Positions 7,357 through 54,959 of a DNA stretch of 64,000 nucleotides are shown here, piece by piece. Position 1 is the first letter of the stretch; every line of letters begins with the position of its first letter. The position numbers were made by a program, and so were the translations under genes. The stretch comes from Naegleria gruberi (Eukaryota), in NCBI GenBank assembly GCA_000004985.1, contig GG738861.1, one strand, 5' to 3'. The notes beneath the pieces were generated by a model. That model made no database searches, was not told the origin of the DNA, and saw only the letters and a program-made list of their open reading frames with translations.

Positions 7357-9129
7357 TTATTCCTCATCAGATGGTTCTTCCGTGTCTTCAATGAATGAAT
7401 TATCTTCTTCTGTCAAGCTGTTACTACAACTATTTGAGCTAGGAAGGAAATGATAAAAGGATTTCCAATTAATTATATTTCTGCGATTTTCATTTCTCAG
7501 TGCTTCACATGGGATAATTCCTTCAAGGGTTCGGAGAAGTTTATAATAGACATCCTCTTGACCCTCCTCTTTGAGTTGTGGTAGATAATTAAGGAGATTC
7601 GAATCTCCTTTAAAAATATTTTGGTACAAATGGTTTTTGAGCATTAATTGTTGAACCTCAAATCTTTTGAGATAGATATTCTCTAGTTCTTTCTTATTTT
7701 TAAAGTTGAACAATCGACAGGGGAATCTAGCCCTTCTCTTGTCAAATTTCTTGGCAAGATCTCGATGAGGAACAATAGTTTGAGTTGTTTGCTTATTCAC
7801 TCTCTTTGGTAACCATCTACAAATGTAACTATTTGGAATGTCTGAATAAATAATACTAGTTGATGTGATTTCTGGTTTTCTCTTATCCTTAGTGTTGAGC
7901 AGTAATTCTTTCTCCAATTGTTTCATTTCTTCCTCATTAAAACAAAATCTATTTTTGAAATCCTCAATATCATTAAATGATTCCTTTGCTTTCGAGCATT
8001 TAGTAATAATGGAGTTGTATCTATTTTGCATAGATATTTTAGGAGGTTGAGTAGCAGCTGTTTTCTTAGAATGAATATGTTTTGGAGGAATGAGGTGCCA
8101 TCCACTCTTTTTTGATAATTTGGAAGATAATTCCTCAACTCTTTCATTCACATCGTTGAAAGATTGTAAAACAGAAACAAAGTGTTGGAACCTCTCATCA
8201 ATTGTTACAAAGCTTAGTTTAGGTTCTTCCTCAGATTGTTGAATAGAGTTTTGTGGCTCTTCCTCAGGTTCCGTTTCCTCATTCAAAATTTGTTTTTGTA
8301 CAGGTTCAATATTTACATATTTTTCCTCATTCTCAACTACAGTTCTAGTTGCTGGCTCCTCCTCTCTAGTTCTAATTTTTCTTGCCATTGCAAGAATATC
8401 CTCAAGCTTTTTCTTCTGATTGCTTACTGGTTTTGGTTTTTCTGGAATGTTTGACTCAACTGGAGGAGTTTTGTTTTTTTCATTTACAGTTTTCGAAACA
8501 GTTCCTTTCTTTGCAGGTGTTGAGTTCTGGGCAATGGTTGCCTTCTTTTGAGGAATTGATTTTCTATTTGGTTGAGGTGTTGGTTCTGGCAGAATTTCCA
8601 CTTGCTTAGGTTTTGGTGTTTCTATTTGAGGGGGTTCAAATTTTACAGAGTTTTGCTCTTGTTTAAGTGGAATTGAGTTTGGAACCTTCCTTCTCCTATT
8701 CTTCTTGTCAATCAGTAATTGAGCATTTCTTTCTTCCAACATCTTTTTAATTTGAGCCCTCTCAATCTGTTCCTTTTGTTTTAAAAACACAAATTCTTTC
8801 AATGCCTTTTTAGTGGAAGCATTCACAGATGAAAATACCAAATTAGCAATTTCCAAATCCTTCAATATTGGCTCCAATATTTTCCTATTCAATTTTAATA
8901 ATTTAACTCCCAATTCATTTGTAATCACCCCACTGCCATTTGTATTTCTCCTCTCCGAATTAAAACTATTTGAAACATTTTCATAAATATTTGGCGATGA
9001 TTCATCTCCAGTTGTTGGTGTTGTATTTTTGATTGGTGTCATTGCTTCAAAGTTGTTTGTTATTTCCGAAGTTCTTGCCTCTCTAGATTGTATGATGGTG
9101 TATTGAGGGAGCAAGGTATTTGGTAGCAT
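7357..9129 (-). CDS. Hypothetical low-complexity protein, 590 aa (probably nuclear)
   Basis: Complete ORF with a true ATG. It has P/K/E/T-rich disordered stretches (PEPTPQPNRKSIPQKKATIAQNSTPAKK), basic clusters and an acidic C-terminus (TEEDNSFIEDTEEPSDEE). No domain recognised. Confidence 0.5.
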   Translation of the reverse strand: MLPNTLLPQYTIIQSREARTSEITNNFEAMTPIKNTTPTTGDESSPNIYENVSNSFNSERRNTNGSGVITNELGVKLLKLNRKILEPILKDLEIANLVFSSVNASTKKALKEFVFLKQKEQIERAQIKKMLEERNAQLLIDKKNRRRKVPNSIPLKQEQNSVKFEPPQIETPKPKQVEILPEPTPQPNRKSIPQKKATIAQNSTPAKKGTVSKTVNEKNKTPPVESNIPEKPKPVSNQKKKLEDILAMARKIRTREEEPATRTVVENEEKYVNIEPVQKQILNEETEPEEEPQNSIQQSEEEPKLSFVTIDERFQHFVSVLQSFNDVNERVEELSSKLSKKSGWHLIPPKHIHSKKTAATQPPKISMQNRYNSIITKCSKAKESFNDIEDFKNRFCFNEEEMKQLEKELLLNTKDKRKPEITSTSIIYSDIPNSYICRWLPKRVNKQTTQTIVPHRDLAKKFDKRRARFPCRLFNFKNKKELENIYLKRFEVQQLMLKNHLYQNIFKGDSNLLNYLPQLKEEGQEDVYYKLLRTLEGIIPCEALRNENRRNIINWKSFYHFLPSSNSCSNSLTEEDNSFIEDTEEPSDEE

Positions 9130-9202
9130 TTTTTGTATGATTTTAGGAGATCAGCAGTTAATTCTGATAATTGAGATAATTTGTTGAGTATTAATAGATT
9201 TA

Positions 9203-11950
9203 TTAATCAACCATTCGCATATGTTCACTTTGAATATTTGTCCAAGCATTTTTGGCTACCTTTTCCACAAATTCCGATTTCTGGGTTGGCTTGATGAGAT
9301 TGAAGAAATTAGTGAAATTGTACATCTGCTTGTGGAAAGTTTGATTATGCTTGTCAGATAACTGTTTCAAGTGTTGCCATGTGTCACTTGAGAGAGATTG
9401 ACCGTAATTTGTTTGCATTATTTTCTTTAACAATCTTTGAGCACGAACACCATCTTCCATATTTCTCAAATAACTTTCACCACATTCACGAAGTAATTCA
9501 CACATGAATTCCAATTCAGTTCTGGCTGCTTTTGCTTCGAACTCTGGATCGTCTGAATAGCCGCTGAAATGATATTTAAATGGAGCGTCTGATGATTGTT
9601 TCAGATATCCTGTTATCGTTTCCTTCAATTTTGGACATTCTGCTGCTTTAGCACCGGTGAGCATTGCTGGGATACTTTGCTTTGAATCCATGTGGAAAAA
9701 GTCTGGATAAATTGTCACATGTTTTTCAAGTGGTTTGCCTTCACATACATTGATAGCAAATTTAGCCCAAAGTGCAGATGGATCCCAAATCTTCAAATAT
9801 TTCAAAACTGAAATGACATAATGTCCAGTATTGCTGTTCTTTTCATCATAGAATTGAGAACAGTTCCATGCACAGTTGAATTCAGCCAATCTATAAAGGA
9901 AGCTATCAATTTCTTCATTCTTTCTAACTTTGTAAATGTTACAATCATAGAAGGTTTGATAGAGGAAATTTTCTTTCTTTTCTTGATCTTCAATAACTAT
10001 CAAGTGAGTTTTGTCATCAAAAGAAATAACAAACTTGGCAAAGAAAAGAGCCACTTTCAATTTTGGAATATTGTTTTGTGCATCTTGGGAAGGAAGTGCA
10101 TTAGCATCGTATATAACAAATTTGAGATTGAGATATGGAACTTTGTCATTTCTGGCGTGACGTTTTCCTGGATTGTAATTAGCTTCTAAGTGTTTTGGAA
10201 CAACAGTGTTGATGACAATATACTCTTCAGCTTGTTTTGTATCAAGGTCACTGCTCTTTTTGTGTGCCAATGTTTGCACAGAGTTTTCAATCATCTTCTC
10301 ATCTTCTAAAGGAATTCTATTTTGAATAGATTTTACAATCATATCAGTTGCCTCTTCTGCGCCAAATACCTTTTCTTCTTTTCGGACCTCAGCTGGTTTA
10401 ATTGTTACTAATTGTTCACTGGAACTAGCAGGATAAATCACTTCTTCAAATGTGACACCTTCTACCTCAAATCCATTGGATTTGAGGAATCCAGCAAAGT
10501 TGTATCCAAATATGTCAATTATTTTACCGAATTGCATTTGGAAATTTTCAATGAAATGACCTAAATTCTCAAATTTATCCTTAGATTGTTGGTATTGTTG
10601 TTTTGCAAATTGTCCAATGTTCAATATGGTGACAACTGGGGAGTATTTACTAAGAACCGAGTTGTCCCACTGGTAACCAAAGCTTGAATAGTTTGAAGTT
10701 GTTTGGGTATTACCTCCTTGTTGGGTAGTGTACTGAACCCCTCTCATGCTTTGTCCATTATCTTCCGGATTGTAACTAGTTATTGGTTGAATATTATTTG
10801 ATTGAGCTGCCTTGGAAGTGTCAAAAAATGTATAGTCAACTAGTCCATCTATTATTTCATTATTAATTACCAAGAAAATACAAGTCTCTAAATCACTCTC
10901 AAAATGAGTAAGAACTGGCGAAGTAACAAAATGGAGGCCAGCATAATTTCCAATTTCACTGATATGAAGTAATTGTGGAAGAGCAACTTGTACTTCTGGG
11001 TGATCCTTTGGTACAAACCACATACTGATACTTTGCATTGAATGATTTTTTAGCATTTCATACAATCCAGTTCTTGAGCTTTCTTTGAATGATAAATAAA
11101 GAGTGTTTGGCTGTCCACCCATTTTAGGCCCATTTTCAAAATGGATTTTTGTGTATGTGACGGTATTGTAAAAATCAGTAAGTGGATTTGGATAATCAAT
11201 TTCATCATCATCTTTGTCAGATTGTTCAACAGCAATAATGTTAGGAGTAAGGCTGTCAAGAGAATCTGTTTTGCCTTCCATAAAATTTTCCAATATTTGT
11301 TGTACAATGACACTTCCAAAGTTTGCCTTCCTGTTTGGTGTTCTCCTCCTGTTGGTTGGACTTGAACAATTACTTAAAGAAGAGCCTAAAGAGTTAAACC
11401 TTAAAAAAGCCTGAATGAATTCATCCTCCTCATTTTGAACAGCATCTGAAATGAAACATGATTCTTTGGTTGTGCAACCTCTTTCTCCAACGCCACTTCC
11501 TCTTTGAGTTTTCATAGTGATGTAAGCCTGATAGTATTGGTTCTGATACTGGATCTCGAATACCAGGGCTACGAACTTGATTTGTGTTCTTCCTGGATTC
11601 TTTCCATAGTTTCCCACTTTAATAAAAAGTGATTTACCATCATCAGATTGTGTCACCTCTTTCGGTGTAATAGAAGTTTGAAATGTGACAATTCTTGTCA
11701 AGGGGTCAATGTGCATATCACTCAAATTTCCACTACCACCAAGACTGCTATTTCTCGTACTTATTACACTACTTGGTTCACACAAGCAAGCAGCCGAATA
11801 CAACAACCTAATGTTCCCATCTCCATAGGGATTATCAATAAAAACGTTGAATTTTCTGTTTTTCAAGTTATGGAAGGGACTCCACAACTTCAAGGAAAGA
11901 TACAACCCATCTCCAGCCAATAACTTCTTAGATAGAGTTTGCTCCGGCAT
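9203..11950 (-). CDS. Large hypothetical protein, about 915 aa
   Basis: The track start (11959) is a GTG. The first ATG is at 11950 (MPEQTLSKKLLAGDGLYLSLKLW...). The frame is continuous and coding-like. No family recognised. Confidence 0.55.
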   Translation of the reverse strand: MPEQTLSKKLLAGDGLYLSLKLWSPFHNLKNRKFNVFIDNPYGDGNIRLLYSAACLCEPSSVISTRNSSLGGSGNLSDMHIDPLTRIVTFQTSITPKEVTQSDDGKSLFIKVGNYGKNPGRTQIKFVALVFEIQYQNQYYQAYITMKTQRGSGVGERGCTTKESCFISDAVQNEEDEFIQAFLRFNSLGSSLSNCSSPTNRRRTPNRKANFGSVIVQQILENFMEGKTDSLDSLTPNIIAVEQSDKDDDEIDYPNPLTDFYNTVTYTKIHFENGPKMGGQPNTLYLSFKESSRTGLYEMLKNHSMQSISMWFVPKDHPEVQVALPQLLHISEIGNYAGLHFVTSPVLTHFESDLETCIFLVINNEIIDGLVDYTFFDTSKAAQSNNIQPITSYNPEDNGQSMRGVQYTTQQGGNTQTTSNYSSFGYQWDNSVLSKYSPVVTILNIGQFAKQQYQQSKDKFENLGHFIENFQMQFGKIIDIFGYNFAGFLKSNGFEVEGVTFEEVIYPASSSEQLVTIKPAEVRKEEKVFGAEEATDMIVKSIQNRIPLEDEKMIENSVQTLAHKKSSDLDTKQAEEYIVINTVVPKHLEANYNPGKRHARNDKVPYLNLKFVIYDANALPSQDAQNNIPKLKVALFFAKFVISFDDKTHLIVIEDQEKKENFLYQTFYDCNIYKVRKNEEIDSFLYRLAEFNCAWNCSQFYDEKNSNTGHYVISVLKYLKIWDPSALWAKFAINVCEGKPLEKHVTIYPDFFHMDSKQSIPAMLTGAKAAECPKLKETITGYLKQSSDAPFKYHFSGYSDDPEFEAKAARTELEFMCELLRECGESYLRNMEDGVRAQRLLKKIMQTNYGQSLSSDTWQHLKQLSDKHNQTFHKQMYNFTNFFNLIKPTQKSEFVEKVAKNAWTNIQSEHMRMVD

Positions 11951-12553
11951 CACATCCACTAAATTTTTCGTATTTTTTTTAAATTAATCTTTGCATCACG
12001 TTGGTGATGTTTTTTTTATAGTTGTTTTTGAAACGTGATCGTGCTTTCTTTACAACGTGATGGAAACGCATTTATTAAATAATGTAATTCCAAGTTGGAC
12101 ATTTAACTTGTTGCAAGTTAAAAAAAACAGCTAAAAAGAGTGGTGACTTTGCCGATTTAAATTGGCTCAAAGAAAGCACTTCCCTTCAGTCAACTGGCTC
12201 ATTTCCTACTCTAAATACATTAACTCTTTTAACCTTTCATTTTGTTCTTGTGGAATTGTATCTAGTTGGTTTTTAAAAACTATTGCGTTTGTTTTTTGAT
12301 AGTCCACACATGGAATTTCTTGCTCTAATCATATATTGATAGTGCTTGTGGGAACAACGTTATTATTTGATGAGTTGCGCTAATAGCCAATCATCGGCAG
12401 TTATTGTTGGACTCTTACTATCGATCACATGTTCAAGACGAAGGATGTTCTTTCATCTGCACATTTAGATTTTACAAACCTTCTCCAGTGTTTAACGTTC
12501 TTCATTTTTTTAATTTTTTTTAGAAATTTAATTTATTACAATTTACAGCACGT

Positions 12554-13306
12554 TTACTTCAAGTGCTCTTCAACAGCCGCTCTTGCAGTATTCATCAGCT
12601 TACGGAAATTGTTAATTGGATTACCAACATGGAAATCATCAGGTCCAGGAAACTTTTGCTCGGATTGGAGTTGTTTGACACGTTCTCTTTCGTTCCTTTC
12701 ATCTGCAATTTTCTTCTTTTTTGCCTCTCTTTCTTCTTGTTTGGCTTGTTTTTCTAATGCTTTCTTTTCTTGTTCAGCTTCTCTTGTTCTTTTCTTTTCT
12801 TCGCGTTTCTTTTCCTTCTCCAACTCCTCGGCTTGCTTTTCCTGTTTCTTCTTTTCCCTTTCTTGCTCCTTCTCTTCCTTTTTCTTCTTTTTTTGCCAAA
12901 AGGGACATTCTTCTCCTTCTGGGCAGTCGCCATCACCTGTGCAGCTCTTTTCTGTACAAGTCCCTCTTCTGTGACCACGACCATGACACTTACTACACAG
13001 TTGACTTGAGACTTTACAATGTTTGAAATAATAATAAAAAATTAAATATAATAATTATAACTTACCTTTAAAACTTGATGTTGCACTTGAGGCTACACTT
13101 GATGCTCTAGTGATACTGCTGATTGTGGACAGTTGGTCCTGTGCCAATTCTTGTGCATCATCTTTCCAAACAGGGAAGGTTGAATTCATCTGAGAATTGG
13201 AAAATGTATTTGTTGAAAAGGTATCTTGGGACCCACTTTGTACATTTTGAAAATCGAGTCCAACGAAAGGATTGAAAATTGGAGGAGATGTTTCAGATTT
13301 ATGCAT
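12554..13306 (-). CDS. CCHC zinc-knuckle plus K/E coiled-coil protein: join(13306..13066,13011..12554)
   Basis: Exon 1 (MHKSETSPPIFNPFVGLDFQN...SSATSSFK) ends at aaAG|GTAAGT. A 54-nt intron ends in aaag|. Exon 2 reads VSSQLCSKCHGRGHRRGTCTEKSCTGDGDCPEGEECPFWQ (a CX2CX4HX4C knuckle), then a long K/E-rich helix and FPGPDDFHVGNPINNFRKLMNTARAAVEEHLK*. A possible extra 5' exon (MESKIVWSIPNIK...NHPS, 13527..13377) with a 64-nt GTTTGT intron is weaker. Confidence 0.5.
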
Positions 13307-13615
13307 AGATGAGCTTCCAATATTAACATCAATACTTCAAATAATCATTATCTGAAATATAATAATAAAAAACAAACCTTGAGGGATGATTCATATAAGA
13401 ATGAATATTCCATTGTGGAATAGTGTTTGGTTGGTTATTTGGTAACCAATTCCATTGGTGTGGATGTAATTGTTTATTATTTGCATTCTTTATATTTGGA
13501 ATTGACCAAACAATTTTGCTTTCCATTGACCATCTAGGGAATTCAATAATAGAAAGAAAGTTCCCAATACACTTGGTCTTCTCGGCATGAATGAAATACA
13601 ACAATATAAAAAAAT

Positions 13616-14857
13616 ATGGAGACAAGAAGTAGGATATTCACAAGTTCTGGCAGCACCAGTAACTTGTCAAATGCAGAGGAAAATACATTACCTGCTAATA
13701 TCCACCATCATCAAGTGAATGTAGAGAAGGAAACAGATCCAATACCTAATTTTAAAAGAACAGTCGATTCGAATAAGAAGATTTCTAATATCTTTAGGCG
13801 AATTGTGAGAAGTTGTTGCAATAAGATTCCATTTTTTGGTAGTTTTACTTCATCAAATGATGAAAGTATTGTTGGAAGAAAAGTTGTGGAACAAACTTCC
13901 GAAACCAATTTTCCATATTGTAAAATATTAATGCTAGTAATACTTGGTTTTCTAATTGCCTCCTTTATATTGGGAGTTGTACTTTACATGATTGTTTCCC
14001 GATGGGTAAGAGATCAAGCAGGTGATTTTATTGTTCATGAAATTGTTCGTAAAGGAAATTTAAAACACATTTTACAACAAGTGGTTGATCGTGTTTATTT
14101 GTATGATGTTGAGGGAGATTTCAAAAATCCAAGATATCAACTTGCAGTGGATACTTCTCATGATGGTGAATTCTCGGTTCTCGTTCAACACATGTTAAAT
14201 AATCCAGAGTTTGAGAATTATGAAGAACAAATCCATAGAAATGAGAAGAGATATACCATTGTTGATATTGGAGCTCATGATTGTGTTAGTGGTTCAAATA
14301 GTTTCAATTTTATCAAGATGGGATTCGATGCAATTGTTGTTGAGCCATCTCCAGTTAATATGAAATTGTGTAAGAGTAATTTGGAGAGAGCTAGAAGAAC
14401 ATTTAAATTTGATCAACATCATCCTCGTCAACGTATTGAATTTGTGGAGGCTGCCATTACTGATGCTGATGGAACAGCAACTTTGGGCAATAGAGATGAG
14501 AAGGATAGTTGGGGAATGCAATTCTTTGTGGATAAGGAGAATCCAAATGCTGGAAATCTTGGTAATGCTCCAGTTGTTAAAACTCTCAAATTTGGAACAT
14601 TTGCTGCGGAAAGTGAGCTTCCAAAGAAGTTTTCAGTCTTGTCTATCGATGCTGAAGGTCAAGATGTTAAGATTTTATTGAACTTCTTGAGAGAGGGCTA
14701 TAAACCATTATATTTGATTTATGAAGGACTTCATGGCACTGGTTTAAAGGTAGAAGTGATGAGTACCTATGGTTATCAATTGATTGGTGAGAGAGGATGG
14801 AATCAAATCTATGTTTACAGAGTTGAAACTGATACTATTTTAAAGAAAAAGAAATAG
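13616..14857 (+). CDS. FkbM-family (Methyltransf_21) SAM methyltransferase with type II membrane topology
   Basis: The N-terminal tail is followed by one TM segment (ILMLVILGFLIASFILGVVLYMIV) and then a catalytic domain with an FkbM-like core (RYTIVDIGAHDCVSGSNSFNFIKMGFDAIVVEPSPVNMKLCKSNLERA ... IEFVEAAITDADGTATLG). Confidence 0.7.
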   Translation: METRSRIFTSSGSTSNLSNAEENTLPANIHHHQVNVEKETDPIPNFKRTVDSNKKISNIFRRIVRSCCNKIPFFGSFTSSNDESIVGRKVVEQTSETNFPYCKILMLVILGFLIASFILGVVLYMIVSRWVRDQAGDFIVHEIVRKGNLKHILQQVVDRVYLYDVEGDFKNPRYQLAVDTSHDGEFSVLVQHMLNNPEFENYEEQIHRNEKRYTIVDIGAHDCVSGSNSFNFIKMGFDAIVVEPSPVNMKLCKSNLERARRTFKFDQHHPRQRIEFVEAAITDADGTATLGNRDEKDSWGMQFFVDKENPNAGNLGNAPVVKTLKFGTFAAESELPKKFSVLSIDAEGQDVKILLNFLREGYKPLYLIYEGLHGTGLKVEVMSTYGYQLIGERGWNQIYVYRVETDTILKKKK

Positions 14858-14880
14858 ATGTATAATAAATAATATGTAAA

Positions 14881-16426
14881 TTATTTATTGCAACTATCTT
14901 TCATTTCAATATCGTCAGTTTCATTGGCCTTTTCTACAGCATCCTTATATTCCTCTTCAGAGAGGTATGGTCGAATGAGATCGAGTTTACCAATTCTTTG
15001 CAATCCTCTTCTCAATAATTTGGCCATACGAGGGCTTCTCTTAACAAGATCAGAATAAACCAAATGGACATTGGAGCTGTCACAAAAGTTTTGAGTGACT
15101 GCAAAGGTATCATCCAAATTCAAGACCATATGCCACCAAGTACTTGGTACAAAGATTAAATCACCAGGATATTGAACACATTCCCAAGGTCTTCTTCCTT
15201 GATTAAGGGCTTCATAATATTCATTGGTCAACCATTGAATTGGTTCAGAACAAGGTACATAGCTTGGAACTGGTTGAGCATTGTCCTTAATTTCAAATTC
15301 ATCTTCATAAATCTTGTTAATTTTACCTTCGTGTAATAATTTAGTCTTGATTTGCTTTTCGAATTGCAACTTTTCTTGAATCATTTCTTGTTCTGCACTC
15401 TTCATTTCTTCAATTGCTTCCTCCAAATCTTCACTCACATGACTCATTGGATAGAAGAGCCATCTCTTACGACCACTCAATAAGGCATTCCAAGCACTTG
15501 TCAAGTATGGATCCATGTGGAACTAATTACTCTGTTTAGTATAATTTAACACAAATAATACTTACTTGAGTACCACTTCTTGCAGGTCCAACAACCAGCC
15601 ATCTAAAGAGTGGTCTTTCATCAAGTGATAGACATTGCTCGAAAAAGTCTTCCTTGAATAATTGTGGAATTTCATATTCATCCAAAAGTCTTACATCTCT
15701 TTCTGCAAACTTTGAATCAAAAACATAGATTGGATTTTCATCTTGATTATGTTTCATATAATTGGCATAATTTTGAAACTTGATTTTGATATTGCCTTCC
15801 TTTCTGTGTTCATCGTATTTACTCAAATCCTTTCCTTCCTTTTTATCTTGAAGATATTCTCTGTACAATTCTGAATAATGAGGACCCAAGTGTGAAACTT
15901 GTTGATCTGTTTTAAATTCAACTTCACCATACTTTTCCAAGAATGAATCCAATTTCCAATTAGTCATGGCTTTCCAGCTTGAAAGAGCTCCTGTAATAAT
16001 TACAGGAATTTGAAACTTGTTATACTTTTCAGTAAATTGTTCATAAGTAATACTCTCGGCAGGTATTCTTTCAATGTGTGAAAATGGAATATCAAAAAGT
16101 GACATGTCAAATTGAGATCTACTCCATCTACTGTACAAGGTACCTGAAAATCCAGTAAATGGACATGGTTTCTCAATCTTTTTACTCAACCACCATGCAT
16201 GGATATAGGTATATTTCCATGATTTTTCATACCAAAAGTTTCCTTGAAATTCATTCAATGTAAATTGTCTCCACATACTATGATCTTCACTCAATACGAG
16301 TAGAGTTTTAGAAACCAATGAAAGATTACAAAGCTCACTCTTTGATAGGTATGGAATGATAATTTCAACAATACCATCATCAGGAATTTCCTGGAGTAAA
16401 CCCAATCCTTTTCTAATTATCATCAT
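14881..16426 (-). CDS. F-box / JmjC-domain protein (JMJD6-like 2OG-Fe(II) oxygenase): join(16426..15566,15522..14881)
   Basis: The N-terminal F-box-like region is LPDDGIVEIIIPYLSKSELCNLSLVSKTLLVLSEDHSMWRQF. A 43-nt phase-0 intron (GTAAGTATT...aTACTAAAcagagtaatTAG) joins ...WLVVGPARSGTQ|FHMDPYLTSAWNALLSGRKRWLFYP. That junction matches human JMJD6 [38 protein letters not shown]. Confidence 0.8.
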
Positions 16427-40354: not shown

Positions 40355-41404
40355 TTATATTTCAACACTTTCTGGAATGTCAGTATTTGGTGCAAGCTCA
40401 AGAGATGGTTCGTATGGTGTAGATTCTTCTTCGGCTTCACCACCAACATTTTCTTCTTCAGCACCACCTTGACTTGATCTCTTTTTCTTCTTTGGGGATG
40501 GCTCTACTGTATTGTCATCTTCAAATTGGAATTCCTCTTCTCCATCTTCTTGAGAGTATGGCTTAGGTCTGTATGGAGATGTGGAGAATGAATCGTCCTT
40601 ATTTACATTATCTTCATCGTTGTTTTGTTCGTTTTGTTCATTATTTTCATCTTGTTCCTCTTCTCGGTTATCATCTTGATTTTCCTCTTCATCACCCTCG
40701 TGATAAGATGGAAGAACACTCTTAGATTGACCTTTCTTTCTCTTTCTTTTACGTTGTTCCTTATTATGTACAGCTTTTTGATAACGAGAACTAAATGTTG
40801 ATCGTCCCCATTCCATAGCTTTATGAACTCGATTACTAAAAGATTGAGATTCCATAAAGGAGAGAGCTTCATCCATTTGTAAATCTGGAAAAACAGTCCT
40901 GCACCAATCGTGAAGTGTATCAAGATAGATATTGAGTCTCTTTGTCAGTACTTGTTTTTCATTACCACTATCCAATGGTACATTTGCTAATTGTTTAAAT
41001 TCCTTATTCTCACTCAAAGCTTGATGTAACACATGGAAACCCATCTGTTTATCTGTATACTTTTCAATTCTTCTATACTTGAGTGGAAGTTTTGGACCTT
41101 CATCTTGTTGAGTAGCACCACTTGCATCACCATCAGCAGTTGTAACACCAGCAGCCTTTTTACGTGTAATCTTCTTTACAGCACTTGCTTTGGCAGCTGA
41201 TGTTTTTGCTGCGGAAGAATTGGTGACTGATTTTCTTGATGCTTTTGAAGGTGGTCTTCTACTCTCCTCCTCATCATATGATTCCAAAAGCGCTCTTTCT
41301 TCTCTCAAAAGTTCATATTTTTGGTCATCATTTTCAAATTCAATAAAACCATCAAATTCGTCCTCGTATAATTCCTCCAAATCACGACGATTACGTGAAG
41401 ACAT
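40355..41404 (-). CDS. Acidic nuclear protein, possibly Tipin/Csm3/Swi3 family (replication fork protection)
   Basis: The N-terminus is acidic (MSSRNRRDLEELYEDEFDGFIEFENDD). The central block RLNIYLDTLHDWCRTVFPDLQMDEALSFMESQSFSNRVHKAMEW resembles the Tipin core (RLMGFYQLWLDDLFPKAKFGDCLAMIEKLGHSKRMKVTRMEW). The C-terminus is basic/acidic. Family assignment is tentative. Confidence 0.5.
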   Translation of the reverse strand: MSSRNRRDLEELYEDEFDGFIEFENDDQKYELLREERALLESYDEEESRRPPSKASRKSVTNSSAAKTSAAKASAVKKITRKKAAGVTTADGDASGATQQDEGPKLPLKYRRIEKYTDKQMGFHVLHQALSENKEFKQLANVPLDSGNEKQVLTKRLNIYLDTLHDWCRTVFPDLQMDEALSFMESQSFSNRVHKAMEWGRSTFSSRYQKAVHNKEQRKRKRKKGQSKSVLPSYHEGDEEENQDDNREEEQDENNEQNEQNNDEDNVNKDDSFSTSPYRPKPYSQEDGEEEFQFEDDNTVEPSPKKKKRSSQGGAEEENVGGEAEEESTPYEPSLELAPNTDIPESVEI

Positions 41405-41718
41405 TTTTTTTACTTGTTTTTAATAATTATTTGAATGGCGTAACGATTGAAAAGTGGCGCCAAAATTTTATCCTGAGTGATTACTTTTCACATTTATTAT
41501 TTATTGCTCAACTCGTAAGCAAGGTAATCTTTCATATCCAATATGATTTTCTTATTTCTAACAAATCTTCTGCATTATTAAAGATAGCTAAGCACTTTAA
41601 AATTCATTGACCAGATGTAAATATAAAAAGAATGTTCAACAATATTCAACTACAGCCAACGGAATTTTATTTCAAGCTTTATTTGTCTCTCAAAATTCTA
41701 CAAAGAATTCTCAAAAAA

Positions 41719-42675
41719 ATGCGTCAATTACTTCTCTTCTTCATTGTTCTTCTTGCCTTAATGAGTGTTTGTTGTGGCTTCGATGTTAAGGTCGCATTGC
41801 CTGCTTCAACAACCACCTCACATCAAACCCCTGAGAAAAAACTGGTCAAATCATCAGCAACCTGCCACTTTGGAGAAAGAACAGGTTTACCACCAATTAT
41901 ATGCAGTGATTGCAAGTATTGCAATAAAGCTCCAACATGCACAAATTTCAATGGAGAGAAGAGCATATTTAACTCTCTACAATTCGAAAACAAAAACCTT
42001 GCTTGTAAATTGGCAATGATGAGAGAGCACTGTGCCAGTTCTGATCCAACAAATGATAATTTGTGGACGGTAGTTTCACCCAGTTATTATCCTTATTATA
42101 ATCCAACTTACAGATTCAAACTTTGTAAACGTTGGACTAACAAAATGTCTTCTATTTGTTACTCTAGCTATGATGTTGAATATGATAGTGATTGTTGGGA
42201 TGATCCAACATTCAGTTTTTCAGAGGCAATGGCAAGTGATGGACTTTGTAAGTTTGGTGAGCTCGTAGGAAAAGCTCCTCAACCGTGTCCGAATTGCACA
42301 GCATGTGGAAATGGAAATTATCCAACATGCTTCACATATAATTCTCAATTACAAATGAAAAAGCTCATTAATAATTATGGTGGCCTTGTAAATGAAGACT
42401 GTTTCGTTGATGTAAAACAATTGGTATGTGCTCAATATCATCCAAAGAATCAGGGATACCATTATAAGATATGGTCACCTTTTCAGGCTTGTAGATCTGT
42501 CTGTGAAAAGAAAAGGAATATGTTGTGTTATCCAGAATGGTATAATTGCAACGATTTTCCAACAGCTGATTGTTGGGATGGATCTATTACTGTGTCAGGA
42601 AGTTATGGATTCTTCCAAATTGTTCCGTTCAAGATAATTTTTGGATTGTTTGTTCTTATTTTAAGTCTCTTCTAA
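41719..42675 (+). CDS. Cysteine-rich secreted / GPI-anchored protein
   Basis: The signal peptide begins at the internal ATG 41719 (MRQLLLFFIVLLALMSVCCG). The track start 41632 adds 29 non-signal residues. A Cys-rich unit is duplicated (CHFGERTGLPPIICSDCKYCNKAPTCTNFN / CKFGELVGKAPQPCPNCTACGNGNYPTCFTYN). The C-terminus is hydrophobic (IIFGLFVLILSLF*). Confidence 0.55.
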   Translation: MRQLLLFFIVLLALMSVCCGFDVKVALPASTTTSHQTPEKKLVKSSATCHFGERTGLPPIICSDCKYCNKAPTCTNFNGEKSIFNSLQFENKNLACKLAMMREHCASSDPTNDNLWTVVSPSYYPYYNPTYRFKLCKRWTNKMSSICYSSYDVEYDSDCWDDPTFSFSEAMASDGLCKFGELVGKAPQPCPNCTACGNGNYPTCFTYNSQLQMKKLINNYGGLVNEDCFVDVKQLVCAQYHPKNQGYHYKIWSPFQACRSVCEKKRNMLCYPEWYNCNDFPTADCWDGSITVSGSYGFFQIVPFKIIFGLFVLILSLF

Positions 42676-42860
42676 ACTATTATAATTAAACTAATCAATG
42701 AATTCATTATTTACTTCTATTGCTCATAAAAAAGTGACTTTTTACCTTTGGATAGAGACTTATATTCAACATTGTGGATGGAGAAAAGAATGATTATCAA
42801 GGTATTGTCTAATGCTGTATATGAAAACAAATATATGAATAATAATTCATAATTATGTAT

Positions 42861-42932
42861 TCCCGTGTAGTCCAATGGCTAGGATACCTGGCTTTCACCC
42901 AGGAGGTCCGGGTTCAATTCCCGGCATGGGAG
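42861..42932 (+). tRNA. tRNA-Glu (anticodon UUC)
   Basis: TCCCGTGTAGTCCAATGGCTAGGATACCTGGCTTTCACCCAGGAGGTCCGGGTTCAATTCCCGGCATGGGAG folds as a cloverleaf. The acceptor stem is TCCCGTG/CATGGGA with one G-T pair. The anticodon stem is CCTGG/CCAGG around the loop cTTTCAc. The T-arm is GGTTCAATTCC. There is no intron. Confidence 0.9.
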
Positions 42933-42937
42933 AATAC

Positions 42938-42941
42938 TTTT
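42938..42941 (+). terminator. Pol III T-run, 6 nt downstream of the tRNA 3' end
   Basis: TTTT sits immediately after tRNA-Glu (ggcatgggag aatacTTTTg). Confidence 0.45.
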
Positions 42942-43396
42942 GAATAGGTATATCTTTCAATCTTTATTGTCCTCAATATTTTTTGCGCTAGTCTTTTTAC
43001 GGGCGTATCAATTCTCTCAACAAACTCCGAATAACAATATTGTGCTCACCTTGCTTCTCAACTACCTACCAAAATCTACCTCACTATCAAATTTGCTTAG
43101 ATTTTAAATCTTTGAGTAATACAGAGGATAATCCCACAGGGGTAATGGAGCAAATAACCCCGATAACACCAATAAACAATAAAATTCAAATTTTGCGCTT
43201 CAAAAAAATATTTCAACAACGTTGAAGGCTTTGAATAGGTGAATCACACAAAAACTCGCTCTCAAGTCTTCCTTCCCATCTTCATCAATTATTTTTGTTG
43301 TTTTGTTGTGGTTTTTTTTATTGATTAACACTACCAGTCGTCATCATTACCCGATCCAATTTTAACCTTCTCTTATACATCACCAATTTTGCCAAA

Positions 43397-45241
43397 ATGT
43401 TGAGGACATTATTTGCTTGCACAGTTTTGATTATGTGCTCGCTGATTTCAGTGACCCTTGCCCAAGAACACTATTGTTCATCTTCTAATGTGACATTGCT
43501 TCATTGGAATGTTACCGATCCAAGTTTCCCTAATTCTCCATATCCACTTTATTTCCCACAACTTCCTGACCTCCAATTTATGGTTGACATTGATGGAGCT
43601 CCACAACCAATGAAAACTAATGATAATATTTATGATGCTTTGAAGGGAACAACATTCTCAATGATGTTCCACGTTGTTAAAAACAAGGAAGATAAGGCCT
43701 TCTACAAGACTGTTTACGTCATGAACTCCAAGCATCAAGGAGGTAGTGTCCAAAAATTGATGGATTGCAACATTAGAGTTGCTCAAAATGAAATGGCCTA
43801 CTGTGATGGTTTGACAATGCTTCCAAATACTGTTACAACTGAAGGAAAGAATCAATACTCTTTATGGAATATTATTTCTGGAAGACAATTCGGAAGTGGT
43901 GATTTGAGTTCATCTATTATCCCATATTTATATACATCCGATATTACTTCATATGGTGTTAATGCTTCAATTACTGATGCTATTGCTATATTCCCAATTA
44001 TTCTTACAAATGTTGACAAGGATCCAATTTATGCTAAAGATGGTTCCATTTCAGGATATGAAACTTTGACTTCTGCCAACAATGTCACTTCCAACATTTT
44101 TGTTAAACCAATTTTACTTTTGGATGTTATTAATAATCAAACCAATCAAAACGAAATTTTGGCTTTGCACAAGTCAGATGCTAATGCTATCCGTATTATT
44201 AGAATCACTCCTTTCCATGAATCATTTGGAATTACTTCTCAATACCTTCTCGTTCCTTCAATCCAAAGTGAAACTTTAAAGCCAACTATGGTCCAAAACA
44301 ATGCTAGAATTGTCTACAGCTCAAAGAGAGGATTGTTGCATGCTGTTGTCACCCTCTACAAGGATCAACAAGTTGCTTTCGAAAACTACCACAGACTTGA
44401 ACATGACAAGTTTATCAAATTCTCCTCAAATGCTCAATTTGTCAATGTTCTCATTACTCTTGATGCTTCAGATCTCAGCAATTTGAAGGTTGTCAAGGTT
44501 TCTCAAATCCTCACTGCTAACAATGTTAAATCAACTGCCGAACTTCTTGCTAGTGGAAATGTCAAGACATGGAAGCTCAATGATATTACTTTATCTGGTG
44601 ATTCTGAACAATATGTTGTAGTTGTTGGTACTATGATCTATACTGCCGAAGGTGAAACTGATAAGAATGGTTTTATTTATACTGTCAATATTGATGACTA
44701 TACTCCATTCCAATCTACTCCAGTTGCTGAAAGATTCTCTCTCATCACTGATGATGAAGCTCAAATTAGTAATTCAGATGCTCTCACTGTTACTGCTAAT
44801 TTCTATGGACTCAATGATACTATTGCTGTTGGTTCAGTCATTCGTACCAAGCTTAAGGATGATCCATTCTATGTTGAACCAAAGTTGGTGGGTTATGTTC
44901 ACTTATACAGTGCCTCAAATCTTGATGAACCTCTTGGATCAAAGATCATGAGAGAAAACCAAGGTATTAATCGTTTGTTCAAGGTTGAATACTTCCCAGG
45001 TCAATCCAAAGACTCCCATGCCCACATCTTCCTTGGATGGAATATCAATGATAATGGTGCTGTTGTCTCTACTCTTTCATTCTCTTGTATTCCAAAGGTT
45101 ATTAGAGATGGATGGCAATACATGTTGATTGGAGTTTTTGGTGGTGAATTCCTTATTTGCGTCTTGATTGGTGTTATTTACTTTGTTGTAAAGAAGGTTA
45201 GAGCCAAGTTTACTGCCAACAAGGAATACGAACAAGTTTAA
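43397..45241 (+). CDS. Type I membrane glycoprotein with a YxxPhi cytoplasmic tail
   Basis: A signal peptide (MLRTLFACTVLIMCSLISVTLA) precedes a large N-glycosylated ectodomain. One TM segment (MLIGVFGGEFLICVLIGVIYFVV) is followed by a short tail KKVRAKFTANKEYEQV* (YEQV matches an endo-lysosomal sorting motif). Confidence 0.6.
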   Translation: MLRTLFACTVLIMCSLISVTLAQEHYCSSSNVTLLHWNVTDPSFPNSPYPLYFPQLPDLQFMVDIDGAPQPMKTNDNIYDALKGTTFSMMFHVVKNKEDKAFYKTVYVMNSKHQGGSVQKLMDCNIRVAQNEMAYCDGLTMLPNTVTTEGKNQYSLWNIISGRQFGSGDLSSSIIPYLYTSDITSYGVNASITDAIAIFPIILTNVDKDPIYAKDGSISGYETLTSANNVTSNIFVKPILLLDVINNQTNQNEILALHKSDANAIRIIRITPFHESFGITSQYLLVPSIQSETLKPTMVQNNARIVYSSKRGLLHAVVTLYKDQQVAFENYHRLEHDKFIKFSSNAQFVNVLITLDASDLSNLKVVKVSQILTANNVKSTAELLASGNVKTWKLNDITLSGDSEQYVVVVGTMIYTAEGETDKNGFIYTVNIDDYTPFQSTPVAERFSLITDDEAQISNSDALTVTANFYGLNDTIAVGSVIRTKLKDDPFYVEPKLVGYVHLYSASNLDEPLGSKIMRENQGINRLFKVEYFPGQSKDSHAHIFLGWNINDNGAVVSTLSFSCIPKVIRDGWQYMLIGVFGGEFLICVLIGVIYFVVKKVRAKFTANKEYEQV

Positions 45242-45334
45242 TTTATTAATTCATTAAAAAACACTCTGTGTATTCAGAGAATAAAATCTTAAATTATTCA
45301 ATGTATGCTCAAGTAAGGTTGTCCACAGAAAAAA

Positions 45335-46267
45335 ATGACAGATAGTAGTGATAGCAAAAGTCTTGTTACCTTTCTCTTGATTGATTTTCATCGTGATGAT
45401 GAGAAGAATAATTATATATTTTCCAAATTGAAGGAAACAATGCAGAGAAAACTGCCATTCGAGAAATGGCTCCACTCTGTTGTAATTGACATTAATGGAA
45501 ATTTTGATCGTTTCATTACTGATATTTATCACCAGAATCATTCCTTGTTGTGTTCCAGTCCAAAAGCTCTCAAATTTCACACTGAAAACAAAGAAACTCA
45601 AAGATATCATCACAAGATAGGAGATCAATGGATTCATCCACAGCATGGTGTAATATTCGAAGGCATGTATTCTAGAAATTCTTCAGTTCTGTATCCTCCA
45701 GTTGAGTTATTTAATCCAACTGGATTTACTTTATTATTGAGGGTATTTATTCAGTCAAATGAGAGAGGAGTAATAATCATGTTTGGAGGAGGACACAGTT
45801 GGTTTGGTATTAATCCTTTTGGAATTAGTTTGAATAATGGTGATAAATGTTACGAGTTCACAAGTCAATTGGAATTATGTCAGTGGAATGATGTGTGGGT
45901 TTCGTATAATAATGCACAATATCCTGGCACATTTAATGAATCATGTCGTGTCTTTACTCACAAGAATTCTAATACAAAGAAAGAAATATTTTGCATTGTG
46001 AATGAAAATGAATACCACTTTGAAATTCCAATCGATAATGATGTTCTTTCTCTATCAGATGATGATTACATAGAAAGTGAAATGGGAATGGAATTTATTG
46101 ATCATTACTGTATGGATCGCCTCAAGGGTTTTTTCTCCAGTTTAGTTTTATTCAATCAAAGTTGTAATAGTTTTGATGAATTGAAATTGGTTGCCTCAAA
46201 CTTTTTGGAAAATCATTTTAAACCAACCGAAACCTATCAAGAAGTATTAAAAGATAAATTCAAATAA
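45335..46267 (+). CDS. Hypothetical protein, 310 aa
   Basis: Complete ORF with a true ATG: MTDSSDSKSLVTFLLIDFHRDDEK...GFTLLLRVFIQSNERGVIIMFGGGHSWFGINPFG.... Possibly a beta-sandwich domain. No family recognised. Confidence 0.5.
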   Translation: MTDSSDSKSLVTFLLIDFHRDDEKNNYIFSKLKETMQRKLPFEKWLHSVVIDINGNFDRFITDIYHQNHSLLCSSPKALKFHTENKETQRYHHKIGDQWIHPQHGVIFEGMYSRNSSVLYPPVELFNPTGFTLLLRVFIQSNERGVIIMFGGGHSWFGINPFGISLNNGDKCYEFTSQLELCQWNDVWVSYNNAQYPGTFNESCRVFTHKNSNTKKEIFCIVNENEYHFEIPIDNDVLSLSDDDYIESEMGMEFIDHYCMDRLKGFFSSLVLFNQSCNSFDELKLVASNFLENHFKPTETYQEVLKDKFK

Positions 46268-52542: not shown

Positions 52543-52615
52543 TATCACGTGGAATTGTAATAAAGTACTTATGTATTTCAATTCTCAATTTGAGATTCTT
52601 TATTAATAGTAAAAA

Positions 52616-54663: not shown

Positions 54664-54959
54664 CCCTTTGAATTTCCAAATCTGTAGTCATTAATACTAC
54701 ACCATCATTTTGTAAATATGATTCGCTCACAATATTGATAAGGTTGGAACTAGGAAATGTTACAACAAAAAACTATTCGATATCCATTCTAATTTCATTT
54801 TTAGCAATCAACAGTTCACCTTTCATTACAATAATCGGTATTGAAGAGATTTTCATTCCACAACCAATAAAGCAACAAGTGTCTCTTGGATTTTTCACAC
54901 GAAAAAAAAGCGTCCCTGACATTTGCCATTCAACAACAAATTGATTGACCAAAATCAAG

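What the first reader, a model, noticed from the sequence alone, without database searches (positions are those of the whole stretch)
13616..14857. Golgi-type (type II membrane) FkbM-family methyltransferase
FkbM (Methyltransf_21) domains are mostly bacterial. Here one sits behind a cytosolic tail and a single signal-anchor. That topology is used by Golgi glycan-modifying enzymes and recalls nematode FkbM-like glycan O-methyltransferases. Its start codon is only about 10 nt from an apparent minus-strand ORF (13625), so the two genes must share a very compact divergent promoter, or that minus ORF start is false.
Basis: partly seen in the sequence, partly recalled or inferred. Interest (0 to 1): 0.5.

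Follow-up and report, generated by a model that had tools for sequence, protein, structure and literature searches.

The report
Membrane-anchored FkbM-type methyltransferase of Naegleria
This Naegleria gruberi gene encodes a single-pass membrane protein with an FkbM-type methyltransferase domain, and it belongs to an uncharacterised family, also found in molluscs, worms, green algae and other protists, that is a reasonable but untested candidate for the enzymes that add methyl groups to sugars in the secretory pathway.

Summary
Window 13616..14857 (+) is one intact 413-aa ORF, identical to an NCBI "predicted protein" of Naegleria gruberi. It has one hydrophobic segment (aa 104-127). It passes the Pfam gathering score for Methyltransf_21/FkbM (28.6 vs 22.7 bits).

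An AlphaFold model built on 26 homologues (catalytic domain mostly pLDDT >90) has a class I SAM-methyltransferase fold. It resembles viral FkbM models far better than any solved structure.

A search of 1.84 billion proteins shows it belongs to a eukaryotic clade with the same layout: N-terminal anchor, stem, pre-domain, FkbM core. Members come from Willaertia, a malawimonad, Arcella, prasinophyte algae, molluscs, an annelid and a nemertean. Prokaryotic and viral relatives match only from residue 179 or later, and those examined lack the anchor.

Lumenal (type II) orientation is supported across the family (charge bias in 32 of 42 members; a co-occurring Cys pair). It is not supported by the Naegleria protein's own flanks, which are neutral. 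Golgi location and a glycan substrate are inferred, not shown.

The minus-strand ORF at 13625 is a mechanical TTG-start artefact. The annotated neighbour starts at 13306, leaving a 309-bp divergent spacer.

The parts
13616..14857 (+). Complete single-exon CDS (413 aa plus TAG stop) of the membrane-anchored FkbM-type methyltransferase
   Evidence: ORF list. 100% identity and coverage to the NCBI N. gruberi predicted protein. Orthologues at 59% and 56% identity in N. fowleri and N. lovaniensis. The N. fowleri orthologue is also single-exon.
13616..13924 (+). N-terminal tail, aa 1-103, predicted mostly disordered and inferred cytosolic. It contains a basic helix (aa 53-69) with Cys67-Cys68, and a juxtamembrane Cys102.
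   Evidence: pLDDT <50 for aa 1-52 and 69-98. Only 13-19% identical to the orthologues, against 70% for the core. It is the longest tail in the family, whose median is 19 aa.
13925..13996 (+). Single transmembrane signal-anchor, aa 104-127 (ILMLVILGFLIASFILGVVLYMIV)
   Evidence: It is the only window with Kyte-Doolittle >1.6 in the protein, maximum 3.02. Conserved in three Naegleria species. Helix with pLDDT ~90.
13997..14254 (+). Helical stem (aa 128-147) and pre-domain (aa 148-213) carrying the residues R159, D179, S181 and E185 (D-x-S-x-x-G-E motif)
   Evidence: R159 and D179 are invariant and S181 and E185 nearly invariant in alignment A2. The region lies outside the Pfam match, which starts at aa 217. 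The D-x-S-x-x-G-E motif is also present in one bacterial relative (L007) and one viral relative (L013), both without an anchor.
14255..14821 (+). FkbM-type class I SAM-methyltransferase core, aa 214-402
14264..14284 (+). SAM-binding motif I variant D217-I-G-A-H-D-C223
   Evidence: D217, G219 and A220 are invariant and D222 nearly invariant across 26 family members. C223 is always accompanied by C252.
14342..14347 (+). E243-P244 at the end of strand beta-2, the position of the acidic residue that binds the SAM ribose in class I methyltransferases (role inferred)
   Evidence: E243 is nearly invariant and P244 invariant. Strand at aa 238-242 in the model.
14642..14659 (+). S-I-D-A-E-G motif (aa 343-348) at the end of strand beta-4, an FkbM hallmark and the probable active site
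   Evidence: D345 and E347 are invariant. The motif is conserved in bacterial and viral relatives. It served as the search pattern that recovered relatives.
13307..13615 (.). 309-bp divergent intergenic spacer between the two annotated start codons (13306 minus, 13616 plus)
   Evidence: My 232-aa gene model starting at ATG 13306 matches XP_002678666.1 / NAEGRDRAFT_66245 exactly.
13329..13625 (-). Mechanical 98-aa ORF with a TTG start that overlaps the methyltransferase ATG. It is not part of the annotated neighbour.
   Evidence: ORF list. The annotated neighbour starts at 13306. A 291-aa model that adds an exon from this ORF is absent from the protein collection.
12554..13306 (-). Upstream divergent neighbour NAEGRDRAFT_66245 (232 aa, Lys/Glu-rich, no Pfam family). 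Exon 1 is 13306..13066, the 54-nt intron 13065..13012, and exon 2 13011..12554.
   Evidence: Model built. Exact sequence found in NCBI/UniProt. No Pfam hit.

Best explanation
The gene encodes a single-pass membrane protein. It has an N-terminal tail of ~103 aa that is poorly conserved and largely disordered, one signal-anchor helix (aa 104-127), a helical stem, a ~65-aa pre-domain, and a class I SAM-dependent methyltransferase core of the FkbM (Methyltransf_21) type.

The most likely arrangement is type II: tail in the cytosol, catalytic domain in the lumen of the secretory pathway (in Naegleria, its unstacked Golgi or the ER). There the enzyme would take SAM imported by a transporter and transfer the methyl group to a hydroxyl of a sugar on a glycoprotein, glycolipid or polysaccharide. 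The motif I loop (D217-x-G-A-x-D) and E243 would hold SAM. D345/E347 of the S-I-D-A-E-G motif at the end of strand beta-4 would form the catalytic site.

Shown: the ORF, the domain, the fold, the single membrane segment, vertical inheritance within Heterolobosea, and membership of a eukaryote-wide clade of anchored proteins.

Inferred: the orientation, the compartment, the residue roles and the glycan substrate.
For: Domain and fold:
- PF05050 is above its gathering score, and 24 of 26 family members hit PF05050, best E 1.5e-14.
- AlphaFold model: mean pLDDT 77, core mostly >90.

Eukaryotic anchored clade:
- The profile search of 1.84e9 proteins gave 535 hits. The top non-Naegleria hits are 300-380-aa proteins with an N-terminal hydrophobic segment.
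- They come from Willaertia, Gefionella, Arcella, Pycnococcus/Pseudoscourfieldia, Lineus, Owenia and many molluscs.
- In a neighbour-joining tree the anchored sequences group together, apart from the soluble ones.

Orientation:
- 32 of 42 anchored members have more positive charge on the N-side, 5 are neutral and 5 reversed (sign test p = 7e-6, sequences not independent). The median tail is 19 aa.
- Cys223 occurs in 9 sequences, all anchored, and always together with Cys252, which suggests a disulfide.

Not a recent transfer:
- Orthologues in three Naegleria species and in Willaertia, local GC content equal to its surroundings, and the JmjC neighbour shared with N. fowleri.

Glycan link (indirect):
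- Molluscs are noted for O-methylated glycans, and methylated glycans are also reported from green microalgae. No methyltransferase had been identified for microalgal or C. elegans glycans in the papers read (PMC6272458; PMC6935376; PMC7773692; PMC7614267).
- A viral relative lies inside a GDP-mannose dehydratase / epimerase / UDP-glucose dehydrogenase cluster.
- A Catovirus protein annotated as a glycosyltransferase (502 aa) matches the fold.
- One family member weakly hits the V. cholerae RfbT family.
Against: - The Naegleria protein's own 10-30-aa flanks carry no N-side positive bias: net 0 vs 0 or -1 at 10-15 aa, and slightly C-side positive at 30 aa. No dedicated topology predictor was available.
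- The 103-aa tail is atypically long for a Golgi type II enzyme.
- The putative lumenal domain has no N-X-S/T sequon.
- There is no glycosyltransferase, sugar-nucleotide gene or SAM transporter in the 64-kb window, nor next to the picoalgal homologue or the bacterial relatives examined.
- I found no report of methylated glycans in Naegleria.
- TIGR01444 is below its cutoff.
- Substrate specificity within the FkbM family is broad. The founding member methylates a macrolide (PMC12085832).
Confidence: 0.55

Rival explanations
1. Same architecture and lumenal orientation, but the substrate is not a glycan. The enzyme would methylate a lipid, a small secreted metabolite or a lumenal protein.
For: FkbM-family substrates are diverse, and the founding enzyme methylates the FK506/FK520 macrolide (PMC12085832). 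No glycosylation genes lie near the gene in Naegleria, in the picoalgal homologue or in the bacterial relatives. I found no evidence of methylated glycans in Naegleria.
Against: Family members occur in taxa noted for O-methylated glycans, namely molluscs and green algae. There is a sugar-nucleotide context in a viral relative and a fold match to a Catovirus protein annotated as a glycosyltransferase. The type II layout is the standard one for Golgi glycan-modifying enzymes (general knowledge).
Confidence: 0.2
2. Reverse orientation (N-terminus out, catalytic domain in the cytosol). The protein would be a membrane-tethered cytosolic methyltransferase acting at an organelle surface.
For: The Naegleria flanks are charge-neutral or slightly C-side positive at 20-30 aa. 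The anchor is long and very hydrophobic, which can favour N-terminal translocation (general knowledge). There are no N-glycosylation sequons in the C-terminal domain. SAM is made in the cytosol.
Against: A ~100-aa N-terminal segment without a signal peptide is rarely translocated (general knowledge). At 60 aa the N-side is +6 against -2. Relatives have short, basic N-termini or signal-peptide-like starts, 32 of 42 with the N-in bias. The Cys223/Cys252 co-occurrence suggests a disulfide.
Confidence: 0.15
3. The gene is a recent bacterial or viral acquisition, a contaminant, or an inactive relic.
For: The FkbM superfamily is dominated by prokaryotic and viral members. The Pfam score of the single sequence is modest.
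Against: Orthologues exist in three Naegleria species and in Willaertia, and the JmjC neighbour is shared with N. fowleri. GC content is 0.34, like the rest of the window. The closest relatives are eukaryotic, while prokaryotic and viral matches are only 19-30% identical and begin at query residue 179 or later. All motif residues are intact, and the core is 70% identical between species against 13-19% for the tail, which indicates purifying selection on the domain.
Confidence: 0.03

Closest known systems
Bacterial FkbM family (Pfam PF05050 / TIGR01444): FkbM 31-O-methyltransferase of FK506/FK520 biosynthesis, and FkbM-type genes in O-antigen clusters
   Same: Same domain family by HMM. Same class I SAM-methyltransferase fold. 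Motif I (D-x-G-A) and the S-I-D-x-E-G motif are conserved, and some bacterial relatives also carry the D-x-S-x-x-G-E pre-domain motif. The O-methylating chemistry is described in PMC12085832. FkbM genes occur in O-polysaccharide clusters (PMC10888714).
   Different: The bacterial relatives examined are soluble, ~200-290 aa, without a signal-anchor. They are 19-27% identical, matching from query residue 179 or later. The Naegleria protein adds a 103-aa tail, a membrane helix and a stem. It falls below the TIGR01444 cutoff.
Viral FkbM-family methyltransferases (giant viruses, chloroviruses, prasinoviruses, jumbo phages)
   Same: These are the best structural matches found: Foldseek E 3.5e-11 to 1e-8. 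One relative sits in a sugar-nucleotide biosynthesis cluster. One match is a 502-aa Catovirus protein annotated as a glycosyltransferase.
   Different: They match only from query residue 179 or later, at 23-30% identity. The two viral proteins aligned here (L013, L014) have no membrane anchor. Their function is also undefined (PMC12085832).
Plant Golgi type II polysaccharide methyltransferases (pectin QUA2-type and glucuronoxylan GXMT-type) fed by Golgi SAM transporters (GoSAMT / C. elegans SAMT-1, MFS_5)
   Same: The proposed working principle is the same: a signal-anchored SAM-dependent methyltransferase with a lumenal catalytic domain that depends on SAM import into the Golgi (bioRxiv 10.1101/2021.07.06.451061; the enzyme families are from general knowledge).
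   Different: These are different protein families. FkbM was the only Pfam family hit at E <= 1. Their substrates are plant cell-wall polymers. No SAM transporter could be looked for in Naegleria with the tools available.
The unidentified glycan O-methyltransferases of nematodes, molluscs, planarians and green algae
   Same: The activity is expected to be lumenal and SAM-dependent. Mollusc and prasinophyte members of this protein family exist.
   Different: No enzyme has been identified, so there is nothing to compare with (PMC7614267; PMC6422873; PMC7773692). No nematode or planarian member was seen among the relatives I could label.

Membership tests
FkbM family, Pfam PF05050 Methyltransf_21 | Score at or above the Pfam gathering threshold | tested here: met
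   28.6 bits against 22.7, E 1.8e-6, aa 217-355 matching profile positions 1-132 of 173. 24 of 26 aligned relatives also hit, best E 1.5e-14.
FkbM family, NCBIfam TIGR01444 fkbM_fam | Score at or above the curated cutoff | tested here: not met
   32.4 bits against a cutoff of 37.7, E 1.1e-7. It is a divergent member by this stricter model.
FkbM family / class I SAM-dependent methyltransferases | Rossmann-like class I methyltransferase fold | tested here: met
FkbM family / class I SAM-dependent methyltransferases | SAM-binding motif I (acidic-x-G-x-G-like loop after beta-1), an acidic residue at the end of beta-2, and the D-x-E-G motif after beta-4 | tested here: met
   D217, G219, A220, P244, D345 and E347 are invariant and D222 and E243 nearly invariant in A2. 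The motifs are shared with bacterial and viral relatives. The residue roles are inferred from position only.
FkbM family / class I SAM-dependent methyltransferases | SAM binding and methyl-transfer activity | not testable with these tools
   This needs recombinant protein. No solved structure is related by sequence.
Type II (signal-anchor) Golgi glycan-modifying enzymes (an architectural class) | One N-proximal transmembrane signal-anchor and no other membrane segment | tested here: met
   Only one hydrophobic segment, aa 104-127. The same feature is present in most full-length top hits.
Type II (signal-anchor) Golgi glycan-modifying enzymes (an architectural class) | N-in / C-out orientation (positive-inside charge bias) | tested here: inconclusive
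   For the Naegleria protein the charge difference is 0 at 15 aa, slightly C-positive at 30 aa, and N-positive (+6 vs -2) at 60 aa. Across the family, 32 members are N-in, 5 neutral and 5 reversed. No dedicated predictor was available.
Type II (signal-anchor) Golgi glycan-modifying enzymes (an architectural class) | Short cytosolic tail (typically a few to a few tens of residues) | tested here: not met
   The tail is 103 aa, the longest in the family (median 19 aa). A short tail is typical rather than strictly defining.
Type II (signal-anchor) Golgi glycan-modifying enzymes (an architectural class) | Signs of a lumenal catalytic domain (N-glycosylation, disulfides) | tested here: inconclusive
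   There is no N-X-S/T sequon after the anchor.
Type II (signal-anchor) Golgi glycan-modifying enzymes (an architectural class) | Golgi localisation and a glycan acceptor | not testable with these tools
   This needs microscopy or fractionation and enzymology.
   PMC6422873 (2019) and PMC7614267 (2023) state that the C. elegans glycan methyltransferases are unknown or remain to be identified. The phrase 'glycan methyltransferase' returns no paper in the held library.
Plant Golgi polysaccharide methyltransferases (QUA2-type, GXMT/DUF579-type) | Match to their Pfam families | tested here: not met
   PF05050 was the only Pfam family reported at E <= 1.

The most novel reading that the evidence does not exclude
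This anchored FkbM clade is the long-sought family of eukaryotic glycan O-methyltransferases. It would be responsible for the methylated mannose, galactose and fucose of mollusc and green-algal glycans. Its presence in Heterolobosea would mean that Naegleria makes O-methylated glycans in its unstacked Golgi, using a SAMT-1/GoSAMT-like SAM importer. The protein would also be a new lumenal marker for that cryptic organelle.
Probability: 0.3. Interest if true: 0.75.

Novelty: new variant of a known kind. Interest (0 to 1): 0.45.

Why it matters
O-methylated sugars occur on glycans of molluscs, nematodes, planarians and green algae (PMC6935376, PMC7773692). One paper notes they are conserved targets of innate immune defence (PMC6272458). 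The papers I could read say that the methyltransferases for C. elegans and microalgal glycans are not identified (PMC7614267, PMC6422873, PMC7773692).

A conserved eukaryotic family that combines a signal-anchor with an FkbM-type SAM-methyltransferase domain, and that is present in molluscs and prasinophyte algae, is a concrete and cheaply testable candidate for that missing activity.

For Naegleria specifically, it predicts an unreported glycan modification. It also offers a possible lumenal marker for its unstacked Golgi.

If the glycan hypothesis fails, the gene is simply an uncharacterised membrane-bound methyltransferase that automated annotation has already flagged with the FkbM domain.

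Tried and rejected
- AlphaFold on the three Naegleria sequences alone failed (mean pLDDT 38). Only the 26-sequence alignment gave a usable model.
- The AFDB libraries were unavailable, so no annotated eukaryotic structural neighbours could be listed.
- Two word-indexed protein searches with alignments were swamped by one abundant marine picoalgal group. They added few labelled taxa.
- Guilt by association was negative or uninformative. No glycosylation or SAM-transport gene lies in the window, next to the picoalgal homologue, or next to three bacterial relatives. Only one viral contig showed a sugar-nucleotide context.
- Literature searches for methylated glycans in Naegleria, and for any identified eukaryotic glycan methyltransferase, found nothing. 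The Staudacher 2012 and Wohlschlager 2014 papers are not held.
- I first thought the pre-domain was specific to eukaryotes. That was rejected: its D-x-S-x-x-G-E motif is present in a Roseomonas MAG protein and a high-GC viral contig protein, both without an anchor.
- I tested whether the minus ORF 13329..13625 is a 5' exon of the neighbour. An in-frame join through a 43-nt GT..AG intron is possible, but the 291-aa product is not in the collection, whereas the 232-aa model starting at 13306 is.
- The N. gruberi protein itself could not be found by the contig look-up.
Full report
**1. What is at the coordinates**

The window is Naegleria gruberi nuclear DNA, about 34% GC throughout. The ORF list gives a single ATG-initiated ORF of 413 aa at 13616..14857 on the plus strand. 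Its product is 100% identical over its full length to an NCBI "predicted protein [Naegleria gruberi]". It has orthologues in N. fowleri (59% identity) and N. lovaniensis (56%), which UniProt already labels "Methyltransferase FkbM domain-containing protein".

M1 is the only methionine before the hydrophobic segment, so no alternative downstream start would remove the tail. The N. fowleri orthologue is also single-exon. It keeps the F-box/JmjC gene downstream on the opposite strand, as in the window, with two extra genes in between. The gene is therefore real, intact and vertically inherited within the genus.

**2. Domain, fold and motifs**

- Pfam Methyltransf_21 (PF05050) matches aa 217-355 at 28.6 bits, above the 22.7 cutoff.
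- The stricter NCBIfam model TIGR01444 scores 32.4 bits, below its 37.7 cutoff. This is a divergent member of the family.
- No PDB chain is detectably related by sequence, with the single protein or with a family profile.
- AlphaFold with only three Naegleria sequences failed (pLDDT 38). With a 26-sequence family alignment it gave mean pLDDT 77, with the catalytic domain mostly above 90.
- In that model aa 1-52 and 69-98 are disordered. A long helix covers aa 100-145 (membrane segment plus stem). A hairpin-plus-helices pre-domain covers aa 148-208. An alternating strand/helix core follows.
- Foldseek against the PDB gives only weak generic hits, E about 5e-4. Predicted structures of viral FkbM-family methyltransferases match far better, E 3.5e-11 to 1e-8.
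- Across 26 family members the invariant positions include D217, G219 and A220 (motif I loop), S227-N228-S229, P244, D345 and E347 (the S-I-D-A-E-G motif after strand beta-4), P364 and E370. E243, at the end of strand beta-2, is nearly invariant.
- These motifs are shared with bacterial and viral FkbM relatives. I assign roles to them (SAM binding, catalysis) only from their positions in the fold.

**3. The membrane segment and its orientation**

The protein has exactly one strongly hydrophobic stretch, aa 104-127. It is conserved in all three Naegleria species together with a juxtamembrane Cys.

The protein's own flanking charges do not settle the orientation. The charge difference is 0 at 10-15 residues, slightly C-side positive at 30, and N-side positive (+6 against -2) only at 60 residues. 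No dedicated topology predictor was available to me.

The case for a lumenal catalytic domain is therefore indirect.

- A ~100-aa N-terminal segment without a signal peptide is rarely translocated (general knowledge).
- Of 42 full-length relatives with an N-terminal hydrophobic segment, 32 have the N-in charge bias, 5 are neutral and 5 reversed. The sign test gives p = 7e-6, though the sequences are not independent. Their median tail is 19 aa, the classical type II or signal-peptide look. The closest non-Naegleria relative, from Willaertia, has a strongly basic N-side.
- Cys223, inside the motif I loop, occurs in nine sequences, all anchored. It is always accompanied by Cys252. Most others have Gly at 223 with Leu or Ala at 252. 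This pattern suggests the two positions touch and form a disulfide in this subgroup, which would require an oxidising compartment.

Against this, the C-terminal domain has no N-glycosylation sequon. I put the lumenal orientation at roughly 75%.

**4. The family**

A profile search of 1.84 billion representative proteins found 535 hits at E <= 1e-3 and 59 at E <= 1e-10.

The best hits outside Naegleria are 300-380-aa proteins with the same layout: a short tail, a hydrophobic segment, a stem, a pre-domain and an FkbM core. Those that could be labelled come from:

- Willaertia magna (Heterolobosea), Gefionella okellyi (a malawimonad) and Arcella intermedia (Amoebozoa);
- the prasinophyte algae Pycnococcus and Pseudoscourfieldia, plus an abundant marine picoeukaryote group;
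- a nemertean (Lineus) and an annelid (Owenia);
- many molluscs: Pinctada, Dreissena, Potamilus, Mactra, Mya, Mytilus, Nucella, Aplysia and Patella, often with several paralogues or isoforms on chromosome-scale scaffolds.

Hits without an anchor are mostly ~200-250 aa and appear at weaker E-values. In a rough neighbour-joining tree of 127 hits, without support values, the anchored sequences occupy one half and the soluble ones the other. Naegleria and Willaertia sit next to other anchored, unlabelled sequences.

Scans of one genome per prokaryotic species and of IMG/VR found relatives of only 19-30% identity. Their matches begin at query residue 179 or later. Two of them, a Roseomonas MAG protein and a high-GC viral contig protein, also carry the D-x-S-x-x-G-E motif of the pre-domain but have no anchor. 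So the pre-domain is not a eukaryotic invention. The signal-anchor is what sets the eukaryotic clade apart.

The Naegleria tail of 103-107 aa is the longest in the family and evolves fast: 13-19% identity against 70% for the core.

**5. What it most likely does**

The best-supported reading is a type II-anchored, lumenal, SAM-dependent O-methyltransferase of the secretory pathway. A sugar hydroxyl on a glycoconjugate is the most probable acceptor.

The glycan part is an inference from four indirect lines.

- The layout is that of Golgi glycan-modifying enzymes (general knowledge).
- The family is present in taxa noted for O-methylated glycans. Snails carry 3-O-methyl-mannose and 3- and 4-O-methyl-galactose (PMC6272458). 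Methylated N-glycans occur in molluscs, including oysters (PMC6935376). Green microalgae also have methylated glycans (PMC7773692). The papers read state that the enzymes for microalgal and C. elegans glycans are unidentified.
- FkbM-type genes are linked to sugars elsewhere. One viral relative lies between a UDP-glucose/GDP-mannose dehydrogenase, an epimerase and a GDP-mannose 4,6-dehydratase. A Catovirus protein annotated as a glycosyltransferase matches the fold. FkbM genes occur in O-antigen clusters (PMC10888714). An Ostreococcus FkbM gene has been proposed to methylate glycans (PMC5082852).
- One family member weakly hits the V. cholerae RfbT family.

Against it:

- There is no glycosylation or SAM-transport gene in the window or next to the picoalgal and bacterial relatives.
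- I found no report of methylated glycans in Naegleria.
- The founding FkbM enzyme methylates a macrolide.

A lumenal methyltransferase also needs SAM import. Golgi SAM transporters of the MFS_5 type are known from C. elegans and plants. I could not search the Naegleria genome for one.

**6. The neighbouring minus-strand ORF**

It overlaps the methyltransferase ATG by 10 nt.

I built gene models for the neighbour and looked them up by exact sequence. The 232-aa model matches XP_002678666.1 / NAEGRDRAFT_66245 exactly. It has its ATG at 13306, a 54-nt intron at 13065..13012 and its stop at 12554.

The two annotated start codons are therefore 309 bp apart (13307..13615). This is a compact but unremarkable divergent spacer.

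An in-frame join from an ATG at 13526 through a 43-nt GT..AG intron is possible on paper, but its 291-aa product is in no database. I leave that open.

**7. Comparison with what is known, and verdict**

By domain the protein is a divergent member of the FkbM family. By architecture it belongs to an uncharacterised eukaryotic clade that has added a signal-anchor to that domain.

It would work like the plant Golgi polysaccharide methyltransferases, which are also signal-anchored, lumenal and SAM-dependent, but it is not related to them. FkbM was the only Pfam family hit.

The C. elegans enzymes are explicitly described as unknown. No nematode protein was among the relatives I could label.

The domain call is already made by automated annotation, so that part is not new. 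What is new is the recognition of a conserved anchored clade whose distribution makes it a testable candidate for the missing eukaryotic glycan O-methyltransferases.

I rate it as a new variant of a known kind, of moderate interest. The ORF, domain, fold and anchor are firm. The orientation is probable. The compartment and substrate are hypotheses.

Noticed in passing
window 13329..13625 (-), with 13526 and 13377..13335: The spurious TTG-start ORF contains an ATG at 13526. That ATG can be joined in frame to the annotated neighbour (start 13306) by a 43-nt GT..AG intron. The resulting 291-aa protein is in no database, so an unannotated 5' exon is neither shown nor excluded.
   Followed up: partly
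window 14855..14883: The stop codons of the methyltransferase gene (14855-14857) and of the convergent F-box/JmjC gene (14881-14883) are only 23 nt apart. Their 3' UTRs must be minimal or must overlap.
   Followed up: no
window 14881..16426 (-): Two adjacent ORFs (14881..15516 and 15536..16426) are exons of one gene encoding F-box-like plus Cupin_8/JmjC domains. A JmjC/Cupin_8 gene lies in the same relative position in N. fowleri (L001), with two genes inserted between it and the methyltransferase.
   Followed up: partly
window 13766..13822 and 13919..13921 (aa 51-69 and Cys102): The otherwise fast-evolving Naegleria tail keeps a basic helix (aa 53-69, with Cys67-Cys68 in N. gruberi) and a juxtamembrane Cys102 conserved in all three species. 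These could be sorting or palmitoylation signals. The tail is about five times longer than the family median.
   Followed up: no
window 7357..11959 (-), 40355..46267, 50878..55946 (+): There are several runs of large ORFs (up to 918 aa) with no Pfam family at E <= 1e-4. They include four consecutive plus-strand ORFs at 50878..55946 and four ORFs at 40355..46267.
   Followed up: no
L014:789-9832 (IMG/VR contig IMGVR_UViG_3300035227_000232, 89 kb): This viral contig carries an FkbM methyltransferase inside a co-oriented block. The block contains an aminotransferase, a UDP-glucose/GDP-mannose dehydrogenase, an epimerase/reductase and a GDP-mannose 4,6-dehydratase, followed by a tubulin/FtsZ-like gene. 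It looks like a virus-encoded pathway for a methylated deoxy-sugar.
   Followed up: partly
L007:2764-3612 and L013:4755-5618: A Roseomonas MAG protein and a high-GC viral contig protein share the D-x-S-x-x-G-E pre-domain motif of the eukaryotic clade but lack any membrane anchor. They may represent the prokaryotic subfamily from which the eukaryotic clade arose.
   Followed up: partly
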